Below, one piece after another: positions 21,874 through 36,061 of a stretch of DNA of 64,000 nucleotides. Below the pieces are notes generated by a model. That model searched no databases and was not told the DNA's origin. It saw nothing but the letters and a program-made list of their open reading frames with translations. Position 1 is the first letter of the stretch. Each line of letters starts with the position of its first letter. Location of the stretch: positions 2,669,136 through 2,733,135 of the forward strand of contig BCIN01000001.1 of NCBI GenBank assembly GCA_039545335.1, given 5' to 3'. Made by a program: the position numbers and the translations under genes. This DNA is from Kondoa subrosea. Lineage: Eukaryota.

Positions 21874-22491
21874 TTATTGACCAACTATATCTGCATTTGG
21901 AAGCATTCGACGCATTGTGATCGATAGCCTATTCCCTCGAAGCAAAGTTCTTTTGTTGCCTTGATTGTCCGTATAAGTATCTTGTTCTCGAGCGGGAATG
22001 CCATGCTTGTACTCGTAGCGAGCTGGACCGGACAAGATATAGACGTCGCCCGGTCGCAAAAGAATGGATGCATGAACTTGCTCATCCTTTTCAAAGTCCA
22101 TTACAGCGGAAGACAAAAATGAAACGCCCAGTATACCGTCGGCGTATCGAGACAGTAGATCAACATGCGGAGTTATGCCTTGACCAGGTTCGTACAAATT
22201 GATAATCACTTGCAGAGTGAGCTCAGTTTCGAACAGAAGAGAAAAGATATGAGGAGGAAGACGAGGTTGAAGTAATCCAGGTAACACTTGAAGAAGAGGA
22301 GCAATCGCTTTCTCTGCTTCTCCCGCCCAGAGCATACATTGATTCGACGAAAAGGGAGGCAGATTCAGCAGGATTTCTTTCTGCGTTTCTTGTGAGTAGA
22401 GCTTTGTCAAGTGATACAGTCCGGCTGGCTGCAACTTGTCTTCTTCATGATTATCTTCCTCTGATTCCGATCCGAAAAGACTGTCAGGCAT
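21874..22491 (-). CDS. AlkB-like 2OG-Fe(II) dioxygenase
   Basis: IINLYEPGQGITPHVD (HxD), SGPARYEYKHGIP, RLSITMR. Intronless from ATG 22491. Confidence 0.88.
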   Translation of the reverse strand: MPDSLFGSESEEDNHEEDKLQPAGLYHLTKLYSQETQKEILLNLPPFSSNQCMLWAGEAEKAIAPLLQVLPGLLQPRLPPHIFSLLFETELTLQVIINLYEPGQGITPHVDLLSRYADGILGVSFLSSAVMDFEKDEQVHASILLRPGDVYILSGPARYEYKHGIPAREQDTYTDNQGNKRTLLRGNRLSITMRRMLPNADIVGQ

Positions 22492-22753
22492 TCTTCGATT
22501 TGCAGATCCAACACTAGTCCAGTCTGATGCAGGTAAATGTGAACTCGTGAGCTGCTCATCGCGTCTCTTTAGCTTTGTTATGCGAAAGCAAGGGTTGCCG
22601 CACTTTCTTGAAAGCACGCTGTGACAGTCTTGCTTCCGACCATCCAGTCCGAGCACAGCTTTAAGACACACCGCACAGCTGTGCGTCTTCTCCCTCCAGT
22701 GCGTAAGGTTGATAGCTGAGACCGAGTGTGCTTGTTCCAGGACAACATCATTC

Positions 22754-25177
22754 ATGGCTTCATTAGCACATTTCAAGACTCCTGCTGTCGGTCAGTGCTC
22801 TATCGAACCTGTTGGCAGCGTTTCTGATCCGATTAATACCTTAGAGAACGAACCCAATGTAGGCTCTGCCGTCCATCTTGAGCTTGAGAGCGCGCACTGA
22901 CAACAGATGACGCTTGATTAAAGGTTCACTATCTACCTGGCTCGCCTGAACGTAAAGCTGTCGATGCTGCGATCGCCGAATACCGCAAAGCTGGCACCCT
23001 AGAAGTACCTTGCTGGGTCGGTGGTAAAGATAAGTAGTCTGAAACCTTCCCCGCCCTCAAATATCCTATGTTGATCCTGCTTCGGTATCCACAGGTGAAG
23101 ACCAGGTATACCTCCTTCTCGCATTTAGACAACACGCACAAAATCTGATTTCATCTGCTGCTCTCTTTCAGCAACCAAACGCTTCAGAAGAACCCAGGCA
23201 ACTACGAAGAAAATGTAGCTTCAGCTCATCAGGCTGACGAAGCTACAGTCAAGCTAGCTATCGAATCAGCTCTTGCAGCTAAGCGCGATTGGGAAGATAT
23301 GCCATGGAACGATCGAGCTGCGATCTTCCTCAAAGCTGGCGATCTCTTCGCTGGCAAGTACCGCGCAAAGATTGTTGCCGCTACCATGCTTGGTCAGGGA
23401 AAGAATTACTGGCAGGCCGAGATAGATGCCGCAGCTGAAGTATGTCACTCCTCATACTTGGCTACTGAAGTGCTGATCGACTGACTTTAGCTGATCGACT
23501 TCCTTCGCTTTGGAGTCAAGTACGCTGAAGAGGTCTATTCCATTCAACCACCAAAGAACTCAAAGGGTGTTTGGAATCGAGTCGAATATCGACCACTTGA
23601 CGGCTTCGTGCTCGCAATTACACCATTTAACTTCACTGCCATCGCAGGCAATCTGCCAGCTGCTCCAGCTATGCTTGGCAATGTTGTTATCTGGAAACCT
23701 TCACCTCTGGCCATTCTGTCAAACTATCTGATTCTCCAAGTTCTGCACGAAGCTGGTCTGCCAAAGAACGTGATTCAATTCATTCCCGGGCCGCCAGAGA
23801 TGATTTGCAATACTGCTTTCCAGCATCCCGATTTCGCTGGCCTTCATTTCACTGGCTCGACATCTGTCTTCAAACATCTGTGGAAAGAGATCGCTCAGAA
23901 CATCGATACTCTTAAATCTTACCCTAGAATTGTTGGCGAGACGGGAGGAAAGAATTTTCATCTTATCCATTCTTCGGCGGACGTGCAAGCTGCTGTTTTA
24001 CAAAGCATTCGCGCCGGGTTCGAATATTCAGATACGTCTCGCACATGCATGTCTACGAAAGCTAAAATAGGTTACGTAGATACGCCAAAAGTGCAGCGCA
24101 TTAGGACGCTTATACGTTTCCGAATCGATCTGGGAAGAATTCAAGAACCGATTGCAGACTGAATGCAAGAAAATTACGCTTGGAAATCAAGAAGAATCGC
24201 ATTTTATGGGTCCAGTTATGTGAGTCAGCATCTCTAAGCTCTGTCTATTCCCATGATACCTTGTGCAATAGCTCAAAGCAGTCTTACGACAAAATCACCA
24301 GTCTGATTGAAAAAGCCAAGAAAGCTGGAGGGGAAATCATTGCTGGAGGCGGCAGCGATATGTCTACTGGGTTCATGATCGAGCCTACTGTCATCCTTAC
24401 CAAGGATCCTAAGAGTATCACTATGGGTATGTTGAGAGTATGCCAATGCCGAATTCTGGCTGATGTTCTTCCCTTCAGTCGAAGAAATCTTTGGCCCTGT
24501 CATTACAGCGTAGGTCAAGTATCTCTCCAGTGTCAACTTGGTGTGCTCATGGGCATATGTCTCTCTTGATTGTTAGTTATGTCTATCCCGACAACGAATT
24601 CGAAGAGACTTGCAAACTGATCGACGAGACAACCTCTTACGCATTGACTGGCGCCGTGTTTGCCCAAGATCGATCTGCTCTAGTCAAGGCTTCTGCTTTG
24701 TTGCGATCTTCCGCTGGTAATTTCTACATCAATGAGTAAGTGTCCCTAAGCTGCTGACAGGTCGAAACCTAATGAGCGTGTAAAGCAAATGTACTGGCGC
24801 CGTGGTAAGTCACACTTCTTATTATTTGTAGCGAATGACTCAGATCTTGCCGGCGCAGGTTGGACAACGTGAGCCGGTCTCTTTGAGTTGGGAGTAATGT
24901 ACTGACCGTTTTCATAAGAACCTTTCGGAGGTTCTCGCGGCAGCGGAACTAACGACAAAGCGGGAGGTATCTACCTTACCAGCAGATTCCTGAACCCTCG
25001 ATCGAGTAAGTCGGATGCCCAATGATTATGACATGGCTAATGTAACGCGTACTTTGTAGTCAAGGAGAACTTCATTCAGTACGTAATGCACGCGCATTCT
25101 TCAATACAGAATAGCTAAATCGACAACTCTATTCTACCAGCCCTGACACTTTCTTATACCCTAGTAACTCCCAATAA
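22754..25177 (+). CDS. PUT2: delta-1-pyrroline-5-carboxylate dehydrogenase
   Basis: ATMLGQGKNYWQAEIDAAAE, ITPFNFTAI, HFTGST, VGETGGKNFH, EYSGQKCSA (across an AT-AC intron), EEIFGPV, QQPFGGSRGSGTNDK. Confidence 0.96.
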
Positions 25178-31210: not shown

Positions 31211-34200
31211 ATGAATTCAGATTTACACTTGCGAAGTCTGGCAGCAAGCCAGCCAGCGGCGCCTCTACGCCGAGCTGTTCCTATTCCGCGAACATACAAT
31301 CTCTTTGGAGCGGATAAGGCTACTACATCACTGGCGAGATCTCCTCTCGCGAGAGGTTCACCTCGACGACCCGCCTCGCTTCCCATGGCCCAAAGTTTTC
31401 CGCCTAGAACGCGGCCTACCGATGCTCACTTTACTTCTGTGCCTCCGCCGCTTGGTTTAGGACGGGCAATGCCTATTCTTCCGGTCAGATATTTCGGTTG
31501 ATCGTGTTCACAGCTATTGATGCACAAAGTAGCCTCGTCCGCAGCCGCAAGCAATTAGGCCTCGTCCGCTAGAGCATCTGCGCCCTCTGCCTCCTGTATC
31601 CTCTTATACGCACCTCCCATATTCCCGTGCTTATACAATCTTCTAGCCACCTTTTGGACTTCGCCCGACTAAATCTTCACCTGACTTGAAGCAAGCTACC
31701 TTGCCAGCCTCAGTGAGCTATCAAATACGTCTTGCATGTATGAATTGAATTTACTTTGTTCAGTTGGAAAAGGACTATCAAAAACCTAATATGAAGACGG
31801 TCGACGCGAAGAAAGAAAAGAAAGATGCCACGGATAAGAAAGCAGATGACAAGAAATCAGAGGATAAAGGGAAAGAACAATTTGAGAAAGACAAGAAAGA
31901 TTCAGAAAAGAAAATAGCGGATGATAAGAAAAAGGCAGTAGGTCAACCAATTAGGAGCAGTCCAAACTCTCGGCTGATTTTCACTAGGACGAGGATAAGA
32001 AGAAAGGTGAAGAATTCGTCAAGAAACAAGCTGACGATGCCAAAAAACAAGCTGAAGAAGCGAAAAAGAAAATGGAGGAGGAAGTAAGCCTCGGGTTGAG
32101 AGAATCGATCTATAACTGATAGAGAGAGATAGAACAAGAAAGCTATGGCTGCTGGTCCAAGTCTGACGGTTAGTCTCGCTGTTTAGTTCTTAATTTTACT
32201 AATTTTAAAGCTCAGAGCATGATGGTAAGTAAGCGGAAGCTCCAAAGGATCTACTCTCAATGAATATAGGGCGCTCCACGTCCGATGCTTCCGGATCTGG
32301 CTCCTGCTGCGTGTGTTATGTTATTAGCTTGATTTGGCGTGATCGCTGATCGGCCATTTCTGTACAAGCCCACCTGCTCCAGTGAGTCTTCTGGACTATA
32401 TCGGGCCTTATCTGAATCTGTTGCTATATAGCCCGCTGCGCCAGTCAGTAATTACGAATTTCTAGTTTACCGTCTGATAGTAGCTACATAGGCAGCTCCA
32501 CCGGCTCCAGTGAGCCAGACATATACTGAACTCCATATTTGCTAATAGAGCTGCTATCTAGCCACCAGCGGTAAGTCGGTTTGTGCATTTCTGATCGTGT
32601 CTGATCTGCTTCGTTATCAGCCTGCACCACCGTACGTAGAACTTGCCTATGCTGATGTGCATTATTTGATTTGATCGTGGTCATTACAGACCAGCTGTAA
32701 GCACTTTCAAGATGTGTCCTATTTCGCAATCTCTGAAATCATTTTGACTTAGGCTGCTCCACCTGTCAGTCAGTGCTCTTGTATGACCTGAGTCTGATTC
32801 TGATGTCAGACTTCATTTTAATGTAGCCACCTGTAAGTGCTCTTGTATGATTTTATCATCCCAGACTCACCTTGATCGTAGCCACCTGTTTGTCTTGGCT
32901 CCTTCTGCCTTTCGTGCTGATCTGAACTTTATTCTTGGTAGCCTCCAGTCCGTTCGGCTTTCTTCATGTAGGGTTGCTTCTGACTTTTTTTCTAGCGTAT
33001 GTCAAAGGCCTCTTCCGTAGCACTCATATCTACGCCTTTGATTAATAGCTCCGCCGCCGCCACCTCCCCCTCCACCTATTCCGTAAGCTCGCTGCAATGC
33101 TCGCAAGACTTATGCTGAAATAGTGTCGCTTGGAATCGTCAGGCCTCCGTAAGTGTTTGGTTTGCGTGATCTGCGTATATACTGACATACTGACTTAGTC
33201 CTGTGAGCCTATCACGCAGTCTGTCTAGCTGTTACTGATTTGCTGGTGATTTCAAAGCCACCGTACGTCCAAGCTTCTGAAATTTTCTAATATGGCATAA
33301 GCTTACACCCTTGATGCTGTAGCCCACCACCACCTGCAGCACCGCCGAAGGCACCAGATCCACCTGTAAAGTTCATACCAAGATTCCGGACTTGCGCTGA
33401 TCCCTGTTTTCGTCTTGTAGAAGCCGGTATGCTGGCTTGATCAACCTTTGGAGATCTCTACTAATGTTGCTGTGTGTTCATAGCCAACGCCAGCCGCTCC
33501 AGTTAGCCTACCATTTCTTGTCGATGTCTGGGCGAGTCTGACTATCTCGGGTATTCAGGCTGCCGCTCCCGTTCCTACTCCAATTCCCGCGATGGTCTAT
33601 CCTTGGGCGGAAATAATGCAACAGCTTGCTCCTGCTCTGATGCAGCAAGCTCAGATCAAGCCTGCGCAAAATGATCCTAAGGCAATCGAGGATTCTGTAC
33701 ATCAGCACAAACCGCAAGAAAAGCCTCAAGAGCACAAAACCTCAGTCGGTTTAATTCGTCCTAGCAGTGTGACGTAGACTCATTGATTTGGTTCAGCGCA
33801 ACGTGCCTTCGGCAGGACGCTTTCGCAAAGTATGGTCATTCCAGGCTCAATGTACACCCTCTAATATTGCTCTGTAGCTCTCCGACGAATGGAATCCCAT
33901 GCAAGACATGATGGAACAACTTGGCGTGCCGGAGCGAGATCGGTATGGTAGCGTACATGTCATAACGAGCCTGTATTGATTGATTGTCTAGGCCCAGTAC
34001 CGGTCAACCGTCTCGGAGAGTCTCTCCACCATTTCATCATGCCGATTTACCTCAAACCAGAGCTCCAGGCATCCCTGCTTTTGGTCAGACCCCACGACAA
34101 TTCTCGCGGTTTCCAGTAAGTGAGCCATAGGCCAATAGGCTCCACGTGCTTATAGGTTTGCCTAGCAGGAGGCGCCCCTGCAAGCACCTATTTTGGAAGA

Positions 34201-36061
34201 CTATGGCCTTCCAAGTTCCGACCGGTCTCGTAACGCTACGAGTGATGTCCCTGAATTGGCAGCAGAGCCACAGAAAACTACATCAGAGCAAGCAACGCCT
34301 TTTAATATCGATAAAGAAGTACAGCAACCAGTTCTCTCAGTCGCAAGCGAGATGTTGCAACCTCTCGCCAATCCTGCTTTACAAAGCACTGTACCTCGAC
34401 ATAGACCACCTGATCCGAACGTGGTACCAAACAATTCTTTGCCGGAAAGGCGTTTCATTTCCCCAAATACCGACTTTGCAGATCTTCGCGAAGTATCTCC
34501 TCAGAATACGCCTAGGTAGATCATGTGAGAGAATACTGTAAACTTAAACTTATTGAGATTCCAGATCTACCGTGTACGAAGCTCTGCCCGAAAACCAGGA
34601 TGGTACATACACCGCAGTCGCTAGCAATGCGCAGAATGATTTGTGAGTCAGTCGGTTTATGATTTGATTTTGCGTTGAGTAGATAGTAATTAGGCCAGCT
34701 GCTTATACTCCTCTTGCGTGAATTGCCTTTTTTGCATACTGTACAAAACTGATTGCGTACATAGGCCTCACACCAAGCCTCTGCCATCTCTTTTTCCTCG
34801 CGACTTTCATAACTTCTTCTCGCCGCCGAAAGGTGATTGGCGAGAGTCTCCAAAGGTGAACGACCCGCATATATTTCTGCCTCGTGTCTAAACAATCTGT
34901 TTTCAGTCTACGCCTAAGCGGCAAAAGCAGTCAAAACTACACACTACTACACTCTATGAGGATCCTTTTGCATTGAATCAGGACGAGCACGCCCAATATG
35001 TAAAGGAACCAAGTCATGAAACCAAGGCAGGCGCTTTTCATGTCAAAATGTTGACCCGTCTGACGCATCGCAGAGCAACTGGCTAGAACCAGAGAACATT
35101 GCTCACGGCTGGCGTACTGCACCTAATACTCCAAGATCTCATAATGTGCATCAAGTGATTAAGTTAACTTTTAGTACGGATGCGAGCTGATGCGGCACGC
35201 AACAGGACCTATTAGATGTCTTCAACGTGAATTCAGAAGAGACCGAAGGGGCTTTCGAAGCCGCCATTCAGATGAACAGTCACCGTCGACCTGCTTTGAC
35301 TTCCGCTCAGCCCTTATATTCTCAGGCACCCGATGACTTGAACGATTTCCAGTTCTACGAAGCGCCATTACATGCAATGCCAGTAATACTCGACCCTGGT
35401 CCTAGTTCAGCGTGACTATATGGCAGCAATTACTAGTGAGCACATCATCTTCAGCCTTGATTGAGGGCAGGCTGACTTCGCGAAGTCCGTCTGTCGAGAC
35501 TCTGAGTGCTGTGTATCAACCAGATCCGCATGAAAATGACCCTCTTCAGCACGAAATGCCATCCTATCCTTCATCTATTGAACCATTTCATGTGAGTCTC
35601 GATTGCCTCGTCCAGCGAGTCACTCTGATGTGTATACGGTATAGCTTGGGTGCCTGAGCCTTACTCTTTCCGTATTCGACCATTCTATCGCAAGACAGCC
35701 AAATGTTGTGCATGAACAGGCTAACAGCGTAGGCTATCCTTCGGTCTATCTCTTCTCTGGCTCCCTTCTAATCTGTGAACTGAACAATCTTCAGGCTATT
35801 CCACATCATGACACAGTTACCACAGTGCCGGATACATTCCAATCTATCATCGAAAGACCGATCTCGCTGGTCAATCACATTACTTCTCGAACGGATGCGC
35901 TTGCAGACTTGCCACACTTTGACCAGTCAGAGCTTTGGGAAGTTCCTGCTCAACAATTGATGCGGCATCGACTGCATCAAACAGACGATCTCGAAGAGAT
36001 GTGTGAAGAAGAAACGTCTTTCGAGATGGGAGTATGGAAAGGATCAGGACCTAGGCATTAG
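31211..36061 (+). CDS. orphan Pro-rich, intrinsically disordered protein encoded by about 40 exons, including a microexon array
   Basis: A continuous reading frame can be built through about 39 GT-AG introns, mostly 44-62 nt. It joins ORF fragments 31211, 31764, 33592, 34193, 35227 and 35708. Lys/Glu/Asp-rich helix followed by a poly-Pro tract. Confidence 0.75.

What the first reader, a model, noticed from the sequence alone, without database searches (positions are those of the whole stretch)
24032..24083. AT-AC intron with U2-type signals next to the PUT2 catalytic cysteine
Seen in sequence: GAA TAT TCA G|ATACGTCTC...GCTAAAATAGGTTACGTAGATAC|GC CAA AAG TGC. Removing these 52 nt restores EYSGQKCSA, the conserved P5C dehydrogenase motif around the catalytic Cys (established knowledge). 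The nearby GT/AG combinations I tried give the wrong frame. The donor ATACGT resembles the major-spliceosome GTACGT rather than the U12 consensus ATATCCT, so this is probably a rare U2-type AT-AC intron. It ignores two AGs after the branch point and could limit proline catabolism (inference).
Basis: partly seen in the sequence, partly recalled or inferred. Interest (0 to 1): 0.72.

Follow-up and report, generated by a model that had tools for sequence, protein, structure and literature searches.

The report
Two AT-AC introns in fungal PUT2
A basidiomycete fungus's proline-breakdown gene most likely has two short introns that begin with AT and end with AC instead of GT and AG, a rare but known type, and related fungi suggest that both arose from ordinary introns, one perhaps by a single two-base deletion.

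Summary
The 52-nt intron 24032-24083 is there. Of the splice pairs tested, only AT-AC restores FEYSGQKCSA, a motif in 117 of 120 homologues. Two re-assemblies of the same sample show no base difference. No RNA run exists, so splicing is inferred. Donor, branch site and length are major-spliceosome type; U1 and U6 were found, the four minor snRNAs were not. The position is old: all 36 metagenome PUT2 loci have GT-AG (34) or GC-AG (2) there, including the nearest relative with intron DNA. So the AT-AC ends look recently derived, not a minor-intron relic. New here: a second AT-AC intron in the same gene (23030-23092) lies 2 nt from a conserved GT-AG intron and ends CAC|AG. One 2-nt deletion at the old donor could make both ends. 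A gene-finder sample puts AT-AC at about 0.2% of introns (upper limit 0.7%), so it is no genome-wide switch. Regulation of proline catabolism is unsupported. This scan noted about nine other AT-AC introns in this genome before. Verdict: new members of a known rare class, with an unusually readable origin.

The parts
22754..25177 (+). PUT2 (P5C dehydrogenase) coding region: 15 exons, 14 introns (12 GT-AG, 2 AT-AC), 543 aa, no internal stop; single copy
   Evidence: Spliced alignment to P0001, 498 of 543 identical; Pfam Aldedh; best PDB matches are P5C dehydrogenases; one match in the genome
24032..24083 (+). Intron 6: 52-nt U2-type AT-AC intron, phase 1 in the Gly codon of FEYSGQKCSA (the finding)
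   Evidence: same position is GT-AG or GC-AG in 36 of 36 orthologous loci
24060..24066 (+). Best branch site AGCTAAA, branch A at 24065, 19 nt before exon 7
   Evidence: Self-trained branch model: score 1.1 against -7.4 for the next best site; inferred, not mapped
24078..24079 (+). Skipped AG, ending 15 nt after the branch A, at the preferred distance for this genome; candidate former acceptor. Its use shifts the frame, with a stop 27 codons later
24078..24084 (+). AGATACG, a direct repeat of the 5' junction 24030-24036; the last four intron bases equal the first four
   Evidence: Seen in sequence; 9 of 2022 canonical introns end in the matching AGATAG; noticed after the fact
24092..24094 (+). 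Cys codon of GQKCSA (catalytic nucleophile; role recalled)
   Evidence: Motif FE[YF]xGQKCSA in 117 of 120 homologues
23030..23092 (+). Intron 3: second U2-type AT-AC intron, 63 nt, ATAAGT...CAC, followed directly by AG; phase 1 in a Glu codon, 2 nt upstream of a conserved phase-0 GT-AG intron position
   Evidence: (chosen with 3 of 4 reference proteins); scores 121 against 93 for the best of 71 open canonical solutions
23093..23105 (+). 13-nt microexon giving EVKT, identical to P0001, read correctly only through intron 3's AC acceptor
23106..23171 (+). Intron 4: GT-AG with a weak donor (GTATAC, score -0.6); position not seen in the orthologous loci

Best explanation
PUT2 is an intact gene, and the major (U2) spliceosome removes intron 6 from AT at 24032 to AC at 24083. 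U1 and U6 read a strong donor whose only defect is A for G at +1. U2 uses the branch A at 24065. At exon ligation the last intron base must pair with the first, so A(+1) favours a terminal C over a terminal G: the AG at 24078-24079 is passed over and the AC 4 nt further is used. Intron 3 works the same way, using CAC instead of the AG 2 nt later. Both introns descend from ordinary GT-AG introns. Intron 6 kept its position and changed both ends after the split from the L011 lineage, either by two point changes or by G1A plus a 4-nt insertion behind the old AG. Intron 3 most simply arose by one 2-nt deletion across the old exon/donor junction, which left an A-first donor and moved the acceptor 2 nt upstream to an AC already present in CACAG, keeping the frame and the Glu codon. 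The introns are probably tolerated, somewhat slower variants, not regulators. Shown: sequence, frame, motif, orthologue ends, signal scores. From the literature: AT-AC tolerance by the major spliceosome. Inferred: actual splicing, branch site, mutational routes, near-neutrality.
For: Only pair restoring GQKCSA; 117 of 120 homologues carry the motif; no base difference in two re-assemblies; the other 12 introns and the 543-aa frame are intact; single PUT2 copy and a Pro_dh (PUT1) gene is present. Donors above 93% and 96% of this genome's donors. 34 GT-AG and 2 GC-AG, 0 AT-AC, in 36 loci (30 distinct intron sequences) found by a pattern blind to the ends; L011 (284 of 335 identical, GT-AG) is sister to window+P0001 with support 1.0. 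14 of 16 loci that cover the region have a phase-0 GT-AG intron 2 nt downstream of intron 3; L069 reads GGAAAGGAG|GTAAGT where the window reads GGTAAAG|ATAAGT. Literature passages: G-to-A at the first base is rescued by G-to-C at the last, less efficiently (PMC1557818); first-last base pairing in the P complex, AU/AC modelled as tolerated (10.1101/212811); no minor introns in Basidiomycota (PMC10639083).
Against: No RNA read spans either junction. The re-assemblies are from the same sample and may be the window's source; they were laid over 23400-24600 only, so intron 3 is covered only by the word share of 1.00. In-frame GT-AG alternatives exist at both introns. Intron 3 was not chosen with P0002 nor ab initio at prior 0.002. 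The same aligner called 3 AT-AC introns in two broken loci (L078, L005), so it can err. Polarity at intron 6 rests on one near relative; P0001's intron ends are unknown, and no near relative covers intron 3. G1A inhibited splicing in S. pombe constructs (PMC4299874). The minor-snRNA searches had no positive control genome.
Confidence: 0.82

Rival explanations
1. Recently inactivated gene: G1A plus a separate change at the 3' end broke intron 6, and the AT-AC fit is chance; transcripts are retained, cleaved or spliced to AG and degraded.
For: Earlier notes report one-sided broken splice sites elsewhere in this genome (DMC1, PTR2, cytochrome b5, not checked). G1A alone inhibits splicing or leads to first-step cleavage in fungal constructs (PMC4299874). 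Retention or AG use gives stops after 43, 27 or 30 codons.
Against: Needs matched lesions at two introns, each landing on an AC that restores the exact homologous protein, with no other lesion in 1632 coding nt or 12 other introns. Both donors are unusually strong. PUT2 is single copy and PUT1 is present.
Confidence: 0.06
2. A canonical GT-AG intron is used instead (best case 24051-24096, 46 nt), giving a changed active-site loop FEYSDTSRTCIALGR.
For: In frame, normal length, chosen by the aligner when AT-AC is forbidden.
Against: Loses Gly-Gln-Lys and adds two residues in a motif held by 117 of 120 homologues; donor GTCTAC lacks the +5 G found in 92% of donors; total score 2407 against 2457 for the model with both AT-AC introns.
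Confidence: 0.03
3. The AT-AC ends are relics of a minor (U12) intron, or are still spliced by a minor spliceosome.
For: Both introns are phase 1.
Against: Donors ATACGT and ATAAGT have +5 G and do not match ATATCC; no CCTTAAC branch site (consensus). 36 of 36 orthologous loci across several basidiomycete lineages are GT/GC-AG, including the sister lineage. No U11, U12, U4atac or U6atac found where U1 and U6 were.
Confidence: 0.04
4. The introns are spliced as AT-AC, but are kept by selection as a regulated, rate-limiting step for proline catabolism. This is compatible with the best explanation and adds a function.
For: Two AT-AC introns in one 14-intron gene: chance of a second among the other 13 is 0.3% at a rate of 0.02%, 2.6% at 0.2%, 8.7% at 0.7%. 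L011 looks like a transcript with only this intron retained.
Against: Not conserved in any of 36 orthologous loci. L011 was found by a pattern that requires this intron, so its retention is selected for, and its intron is GT-AG. The hairpin over the 3' half is not special: 48 of 805 canonical introns fold as well. PUT2 is not known to me as the rate-limiting step (recalled: PUT1 is upstream).
Confidence: 0.12
5. Sequencing or assembly error turned GT-AG into AT-AC.
For: No independent sample is available.
Against: Two contig sets at depth 144 and 52 agree at every base of 23400-24600; two matched errors per intron would be needed; AG inside the exclusion zone (69 of 2022 canonical introns) argues against a GT-AG intron ending at 24083.
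Confidence: 0.02

Closest known systems
U2-dependent AT-AC ('type II') introns: human SCN4A/SCN5A and TAF2; 15 human, 6 mouse, 3 Drosophila cases (Sheth et al. 2006, PMC1557818; passages and section 20 read)
   Same: AT and AC ends with an otherwise strong major-type donor; intron 3 has the ATAAGT consensus described for the class (PMC5029451, passages).
   Different: Those are old and conserved (human to puffer fish, human to fly) and are read as relics; these two are absent from orthologues and look recently derived from GT-AG. No splicing assay exists here.
Engineered G1A plus terminal G-to-C yeast introns (Parker and Siliciano 1993; Chanfreau et al. 1994; neither paper seen, cited through PMC1557818 and 10.1101/212811)
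   Same: Same compensating pair of first and last bases; same predicted preference for AC over AG.
   Different: Natural, in a housekeeping gene, and with competing AGs 2 and 4 nt from the AC.
Nested AT-AC intron of S. cerevisiae RPL30 (PMC5029451, passages)
   Same: Natural AT-AC splicing in a fungus with no minor spliceosome.
   Different: That is a 1-2% side product with an atypical donor; here the AT-AC product is the only route to the conserved enzyme.
AU-first 5' splice site of Aspergillus telomerase RNA (PMC4299874, passages and section 7)
   Same: A at +1 blocks the normal G-G pairing with an AG acceptor.
   Different: There the result is release after the first step; here an in-register AC is available to finish splicing.
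U12-type AT-AC introns
   Same: Terminal dinucleotides; phase 1.
   Different: No ATATCC donor, no CCTTAAC branch site, no minor snRNAs found.
Intron sliding (called at most very rare in PMC10639083, passage)
   Same: Intron 3 lies 2 nt from a conserved position.
   Different: The slide comes with a change of both terminal dinucleotides.

Membership tests
U2-type AT-AC intron | Ends AT and AC, and removal gives the homologous protein | tested here: met
U2-type AT-AC intron | Strong major-type donor apart from +1 (+5 G, +6 T) | tested here: met
   Above 93% (intron 6) and 96% (intron 3) of 2022 predicted donors
U2-type AT-AC intron | Major-type branch site at a normal distance, pyrimidine at -3 | tested here: met
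   Best branch A 19 nt before the exon in both; 81 of 2022 canonical introns have 19, range 11-29; TAC and CAC ends
U2-type AT-AC intron | Junction seen in mRNA | not testable with these tools
   No RNA holder listed. P0001, a 543-aa frame on a 1918-nt contig, is probably a relative's spliced transcript, but its intron ends are unknown
U2-type AT-AC intron | Splicing depends on U1, U2, U4, U6 | not testable with these tools
   U1 (4 matches, below the family cut-off) and U6 present; dependence needs an experiment
U12-type intron | Donor ATATCC | tested here: not met
   ATACGT and ATAAGT; consensus from PMC3033335
U12-type intron | Branch site CCTTAAC | tested here: not met
   Best sites AGCTAAA and TGTTGAT
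U12-type intron | U11, U12, U4atac, U6atac genes in the genome | tested here: inconclusive
   0 of 4 found, but none of the 14 control genomes rang; U1 and U6 were found by the same search
Fungal PUT2 / ALDH4A1 P5C dehydrogenase | Aldedh domain with best solved matches among P5C dehydrogenases | tested here: met
   (8 of 8 PDB sequences at E up to 1e-20)
Fungal PUT2 / ALDH4A1 P5C dehydrogenase | GETGGKN and FEYxGQKCSA motifs intact | tested here: met
   given AT-AC splicing
Fungal PUT2 / ALDH4A1 P5C dehydrogenase | Enzyme activity | not testable with these tools
   None

The most novel reading that the evidence does not exclude
U2-type AT-AC introns are still being born from ordinary GT-AG introns in a fungus with no minor spliceosome, and can skip the two-mutation barrier: one 2-nt deletion at the donor converts both ends and slides the intron, because about 18% of this genome's introns (358 of 2022) already end in YACAG; intron 6 may show a second short route, G1A rescued by a 4-nt insertion copied from its own 5' junction. 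That runs against the view that the class is a trapped relic of minor introns (PMC2831892, PMC1557818).
Probability: 0.45. Interest if true: 0.6.

Novelty: new member of a known kind. Interest (0 to 1): 0.42.

Why it matters
Practical: a predictor limited to GT/GC-AG gets this enzyme's active site wrong and would call a working gene broken. Evolutionary: the papers I read explain U2-type AT-AC introns as old relics and say that switching needs simultaneous changes at both ends (PMC2831892; PMC1557818). Here two such introns have GT-AG orthologues, one with a one-step route, which makes that question testable with genomes of close relatives. Mechanistic: natural introns with AG 2 and 4 nt from the used AC are ready substrates for testing first-last base pairing in 3' splice-site choice.

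Tried and rejected
No RNA holder listed, so no junction test. Genome-wide AT-AC switch: rejected. A self-trained gene finder on 80 stretches of 10 kb plus the window (864 kb, about 4.6% of the genome; 2045 introns outside the window) made 8 AT-AC calls against 2-19 for each of 19 decoy end pairs; with a strict filter, set after seeing, 2 outside the window against a decoy mean of 1.0 (range 0-4). Strict recall on 481 planted cases was 246, giving 0.19% (0.02-0.69%), not corrected for decoys. A larger sample could not be had, so the estimate stays wide. Hairpin hiding the two AGs: z -2.2 for the whole intron and -4.6 for a hand-picked window, but 48 of 805 canonical introns of 50-54 nt fold as well and intron 3 has no such stem; rejected as special. 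Changed snRNAs: U1 5' end and U6 box are ordinary (consensus recalled). 69 of the 105 pattern matches were not PUT2 (tblastn bits 30 or less) and were dropped. Stwintron (recalled idea): 52 nt is too short for two introns where 5% are under 47 nt. Spliceosomal proteins (Prp8, Prp18, Slu7) were not examined. Literature: searches (listings only, apart from the papers cited) showed no report of an AT-AC intron in PUT2/ALDH4A1 (0 ALDH4A1 occurrences in the 15 listed of 215) and none of a U2 GT-AG to AT-AC change by sliding; the library lacks most subscription journals and I opened no supplements, where per-species AT-AC tables (e.g. PMC7072748 files S2, S9) could bear on the baseline. Chanfreau 1994 was not held. 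PMC12230235, PMC11347168 and PMC7367187, passages only, added no basidiomycete AT-AC rate.

Full report
Observation. The stretch 24032-24083 is 52 nt, begins ATACGT after TCAG and ends TAC before GCCAAAAGTGC. The flanking exons match Pfam Aldedh, with profile positions 94-263 before and 267-311 after, and all 8 PDB sequences matched at E up to 1e-20 are P5C dehydrogenases. I listed every in-frame, stop-free pair with GT-AG, GC-AG, AT-AC, GT-AC, AT-AG, GA-AG or GG-AG ends (donors 23960-24089, acceptors to 24139). Only AT-AC 24032-24083 keeps GQKCSA. FE[YF]xGQKCSA is present in 117 of 120 homologues. That the Cys is the catalytic nucleophile is recalled. Retention, or use of either AG, gives a stop 43, 27 or 30 codons later. 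Contigs of two runs agree with the window at all of 23400-24600 (depth 144 and 52); they are one sample and may be the window's source. No RNA run was listed, so splicing is not observed.

Gene model and a second AT-AC intron. Spliced alignment to P0001 (a 543-aa protein on a 1918-nt contig, probably a relative's transcript) gives 15 exons from 22754 to 25177, 543 aa, 498 identical, no internal stop. With AT-AC allowed the score is 2457 against 2407, and two AT-AC introns appear: the finding and 23030-23092 (63 nt, ATAAGT...CAC, followed by AG). The second yields GGKEVKT, as in P0001, through a 13-nt microexon; it scores 121 against 93 for the best of 71 open canonical solutions, whose donors score poorly. 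It was chosen with P0001, P0020 and P0063 but not P0002. An ab initio model chose both introns at prior 0.01 and only the first at 0.002. I put intron 6 near 90% and intron 3 near 80% (judgement). PUT2 is single copy and a Pro_dh gene exists.

Intron type. I trained a gene finder on 864 kb of this genome; in its first training (664 kb, canonical ends only) it got 11 of PUT2's 12 GT-AG introns exactly. Ignoring the first two bases, the two donors score above 93% and 96% of 2022 predicted donors. Best branch sites put the A 19 nt before the exon in both, inside the normal 11-29 range; lengths of 47-62 cover the central 90%. The AG at 24069-24070 is 6 nt from the branch A, closer than any used acceptor, and skipping such AGs is common (756 of 2022). 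The AG at 24078-24079 is at 15 nt, the favoured distance; only 69 of 2022 canonical introns skip an AG 11 nt or more from the branch. So one AG, not two, needs explaining. U1 (4 matches, below the family cut-off) and U6 were found with ordinary ends. U12, U6atac, U11 and U4atac were not found, but no control genome rang. PMC10639083 (passages) and PMC11347168 (passages) report few or no minor introns or snRNAs in Basidiomycota.

Orthologues. A pattern with exon motifs on both sides and any 42-72 bases between them, blind to intron ends but limited to a TTC Phe codon, gave 105 metagenome matches; 36 are PUT2 and 69 were dropped as chance. All 36 have the intron at the same phase-1 Gly position: 34 GT-AG, 2 GC-AG, none AT-AC; 30 distinct sequences, 29 and 1. 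A FastTree tree of the window protein, 25 database proteins and 15 loci (11 of the 26 aligned loci left out as duplicates, short or broken) joins window and P0001 (0.955), then L011 (1.0; 284 of 335 identical; GT-AG at this site), inside Basidiomycota; the link to Cystobasidiomycetes is weak (0.83). The simplest reading is a change from GT-AG to AT-AC after the split from L011. For intron 3, 14 of the 16 loci that cover the region have a phase-0 GT-AG intron 2 nt downstream; the other two are a GC-AG call one codon earlier and a broken locus. L069 reads GGAAAGGAG|GTAAGT where the window reads GGTAAAG|ATAAGT. The aligner also called three AT-AC introns in two broken loci (L078, L005), which shows its false-call risk on decayed genes.

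Mechanism. The last intron base pairs with the first at exon ligation, and AU with AC was modelled as tolerated (10.1101/212811, passages). G-to-A at +1 is rescued by G-to-C at the last base, less efficiently (PMC1557818, section 20). G1A alone inhibited splicing in S. pombe constructs (PMC4299874, section 7). This explains why an A-first donor would pass an AG and take an AC 4 nt later (intron 6) or 2 nt earlier (intron 3), and why both donors are otherwise strong. For origin, intron 3 fits one 2-nt deletion across the old exon/donor junction: the A of the Glu codon becomes +1, the old AG moves into the exon, and frame and Glu are kept. 358 of 2022 introns here end YACAG and could do the same. 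An independent gain beside a lost intron cannot be excluded, since the gene has several positions not seen in the orthologous loci. Intron 6 did not move, so it needs two changes. Its last bases repeat its 5' junction (AGATACG twice); only 9 of 2022 canonical introns end AGATAG. This suggests G1A followed by a 4-nt templated insertion behind the old AG, but I noticed it after the fact and two point changes remain possible.

How common. Outside the window, 2045 predicted introns gave 2 strict AT-AC calls, both in L126 and at the places of earlier notes e1-7522275 and e1-7522276; 19 decoy end pairs gave a mean of 1.0. With strict recall of 246 of 481 the share is 0.19% (0.02-0.69%), best read as an upper range. 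Annotated fungal genomes give about 0.02% (my arithmetic from Table 2 and section 3.1 of PMC7072748), likely an undercount. So AT-AC is not a major class here. A second one among PUT2's other 13 introns has a chance of 0.3-8.7% over that range: a mild oddity, left unexplained. Earlier notes list about nine other AT-AC introns in this genome; I checked only the two positions above.

Regulation. Nothing here supports a brake on proline catabolism. The ends are not conserved, the hairpin over the 3' half is matched by 48 of 805 canonical introns, and L011, which looks like a transcript retaining only this intron, was selected by the pattern itself.

Comparison and verdict. These are U2-type AT-AC introns by every sequence feature I could test; junction reads and snRNA dependence were not testable. 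The class is known (PMC1557818; a yeast case in PMC5029451, passages). What differs is origin: PMC2831892 (passages) derives the class from U12 AT-AC introns and notes that switching would need simultaneous changes at both ends, and PMC1557818 calls it a relic. My searches showed no report of this gene's introns or of a one-step switch with sliding, within a library that lacks most subscription journals. New member of a known kind; interest 0.42, raised by the second intron and the readable route from GT-AG, lowered by the lack of RNA data and of close genomic relatives.

Noticed in passing
window 23030-23092: Second AT-AC intron in PUT2, 2 nt from a conserved GT-AG position; taken into the finding.
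   Followed up: yes
window 23106-23171: PUT2 intron 4 has a weak donor (GTATAC, score -0.6, below the 10th percentile) right after the 13-nt microexon; the microexon is flanked by two unusual donors.
   Followed up: partly
L011 (whole, 1127 nt): Relative's PUT2 with a 3' tail and none of the 8 downstream introns of the window gene, but with the intron at the Gly codon (GT-AG, 55 nt): probably a transcript with one retained intron.
   Followed up: partly
L126, G000:C1:952098-952153 (+) and 959777-959834 (-): Two strong AT-AC calls within 8 kb, at the places of earlier notes; recovered without homology.
   Followed up: partly
L117:3200-3261 (+): Several non-canonical classes were called at this one place (AA-AC, AA-AT, GT-AC), which suggests a real odd or broken splice site with an AAGAGT donor.
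   Followed up: no
window 21874-22791 (-): 2OG-Fe(II) oxygenase (Pfam 2OG-FeII_Oxy_2, AlkB-like) frame head to head with PUT2, leaving at most a few hundred bases between starts.
   Followed up: no
window 31211-36061 (+): Predicted gene with about 40 introns in 4.9 kb; may be one very intron-rich gene or several fused by the model.
   Followed up: no
L078 and L005: Metagenome PUT2 loci with stops and frame breaks: pseudogenes or poor assemblies.
   Followed up: no
G000:C1:1708176-1714185 and C4: Four near-equal U1 matches, two of them 6 kb apart on opposite strands of C1.
   Followed up: no
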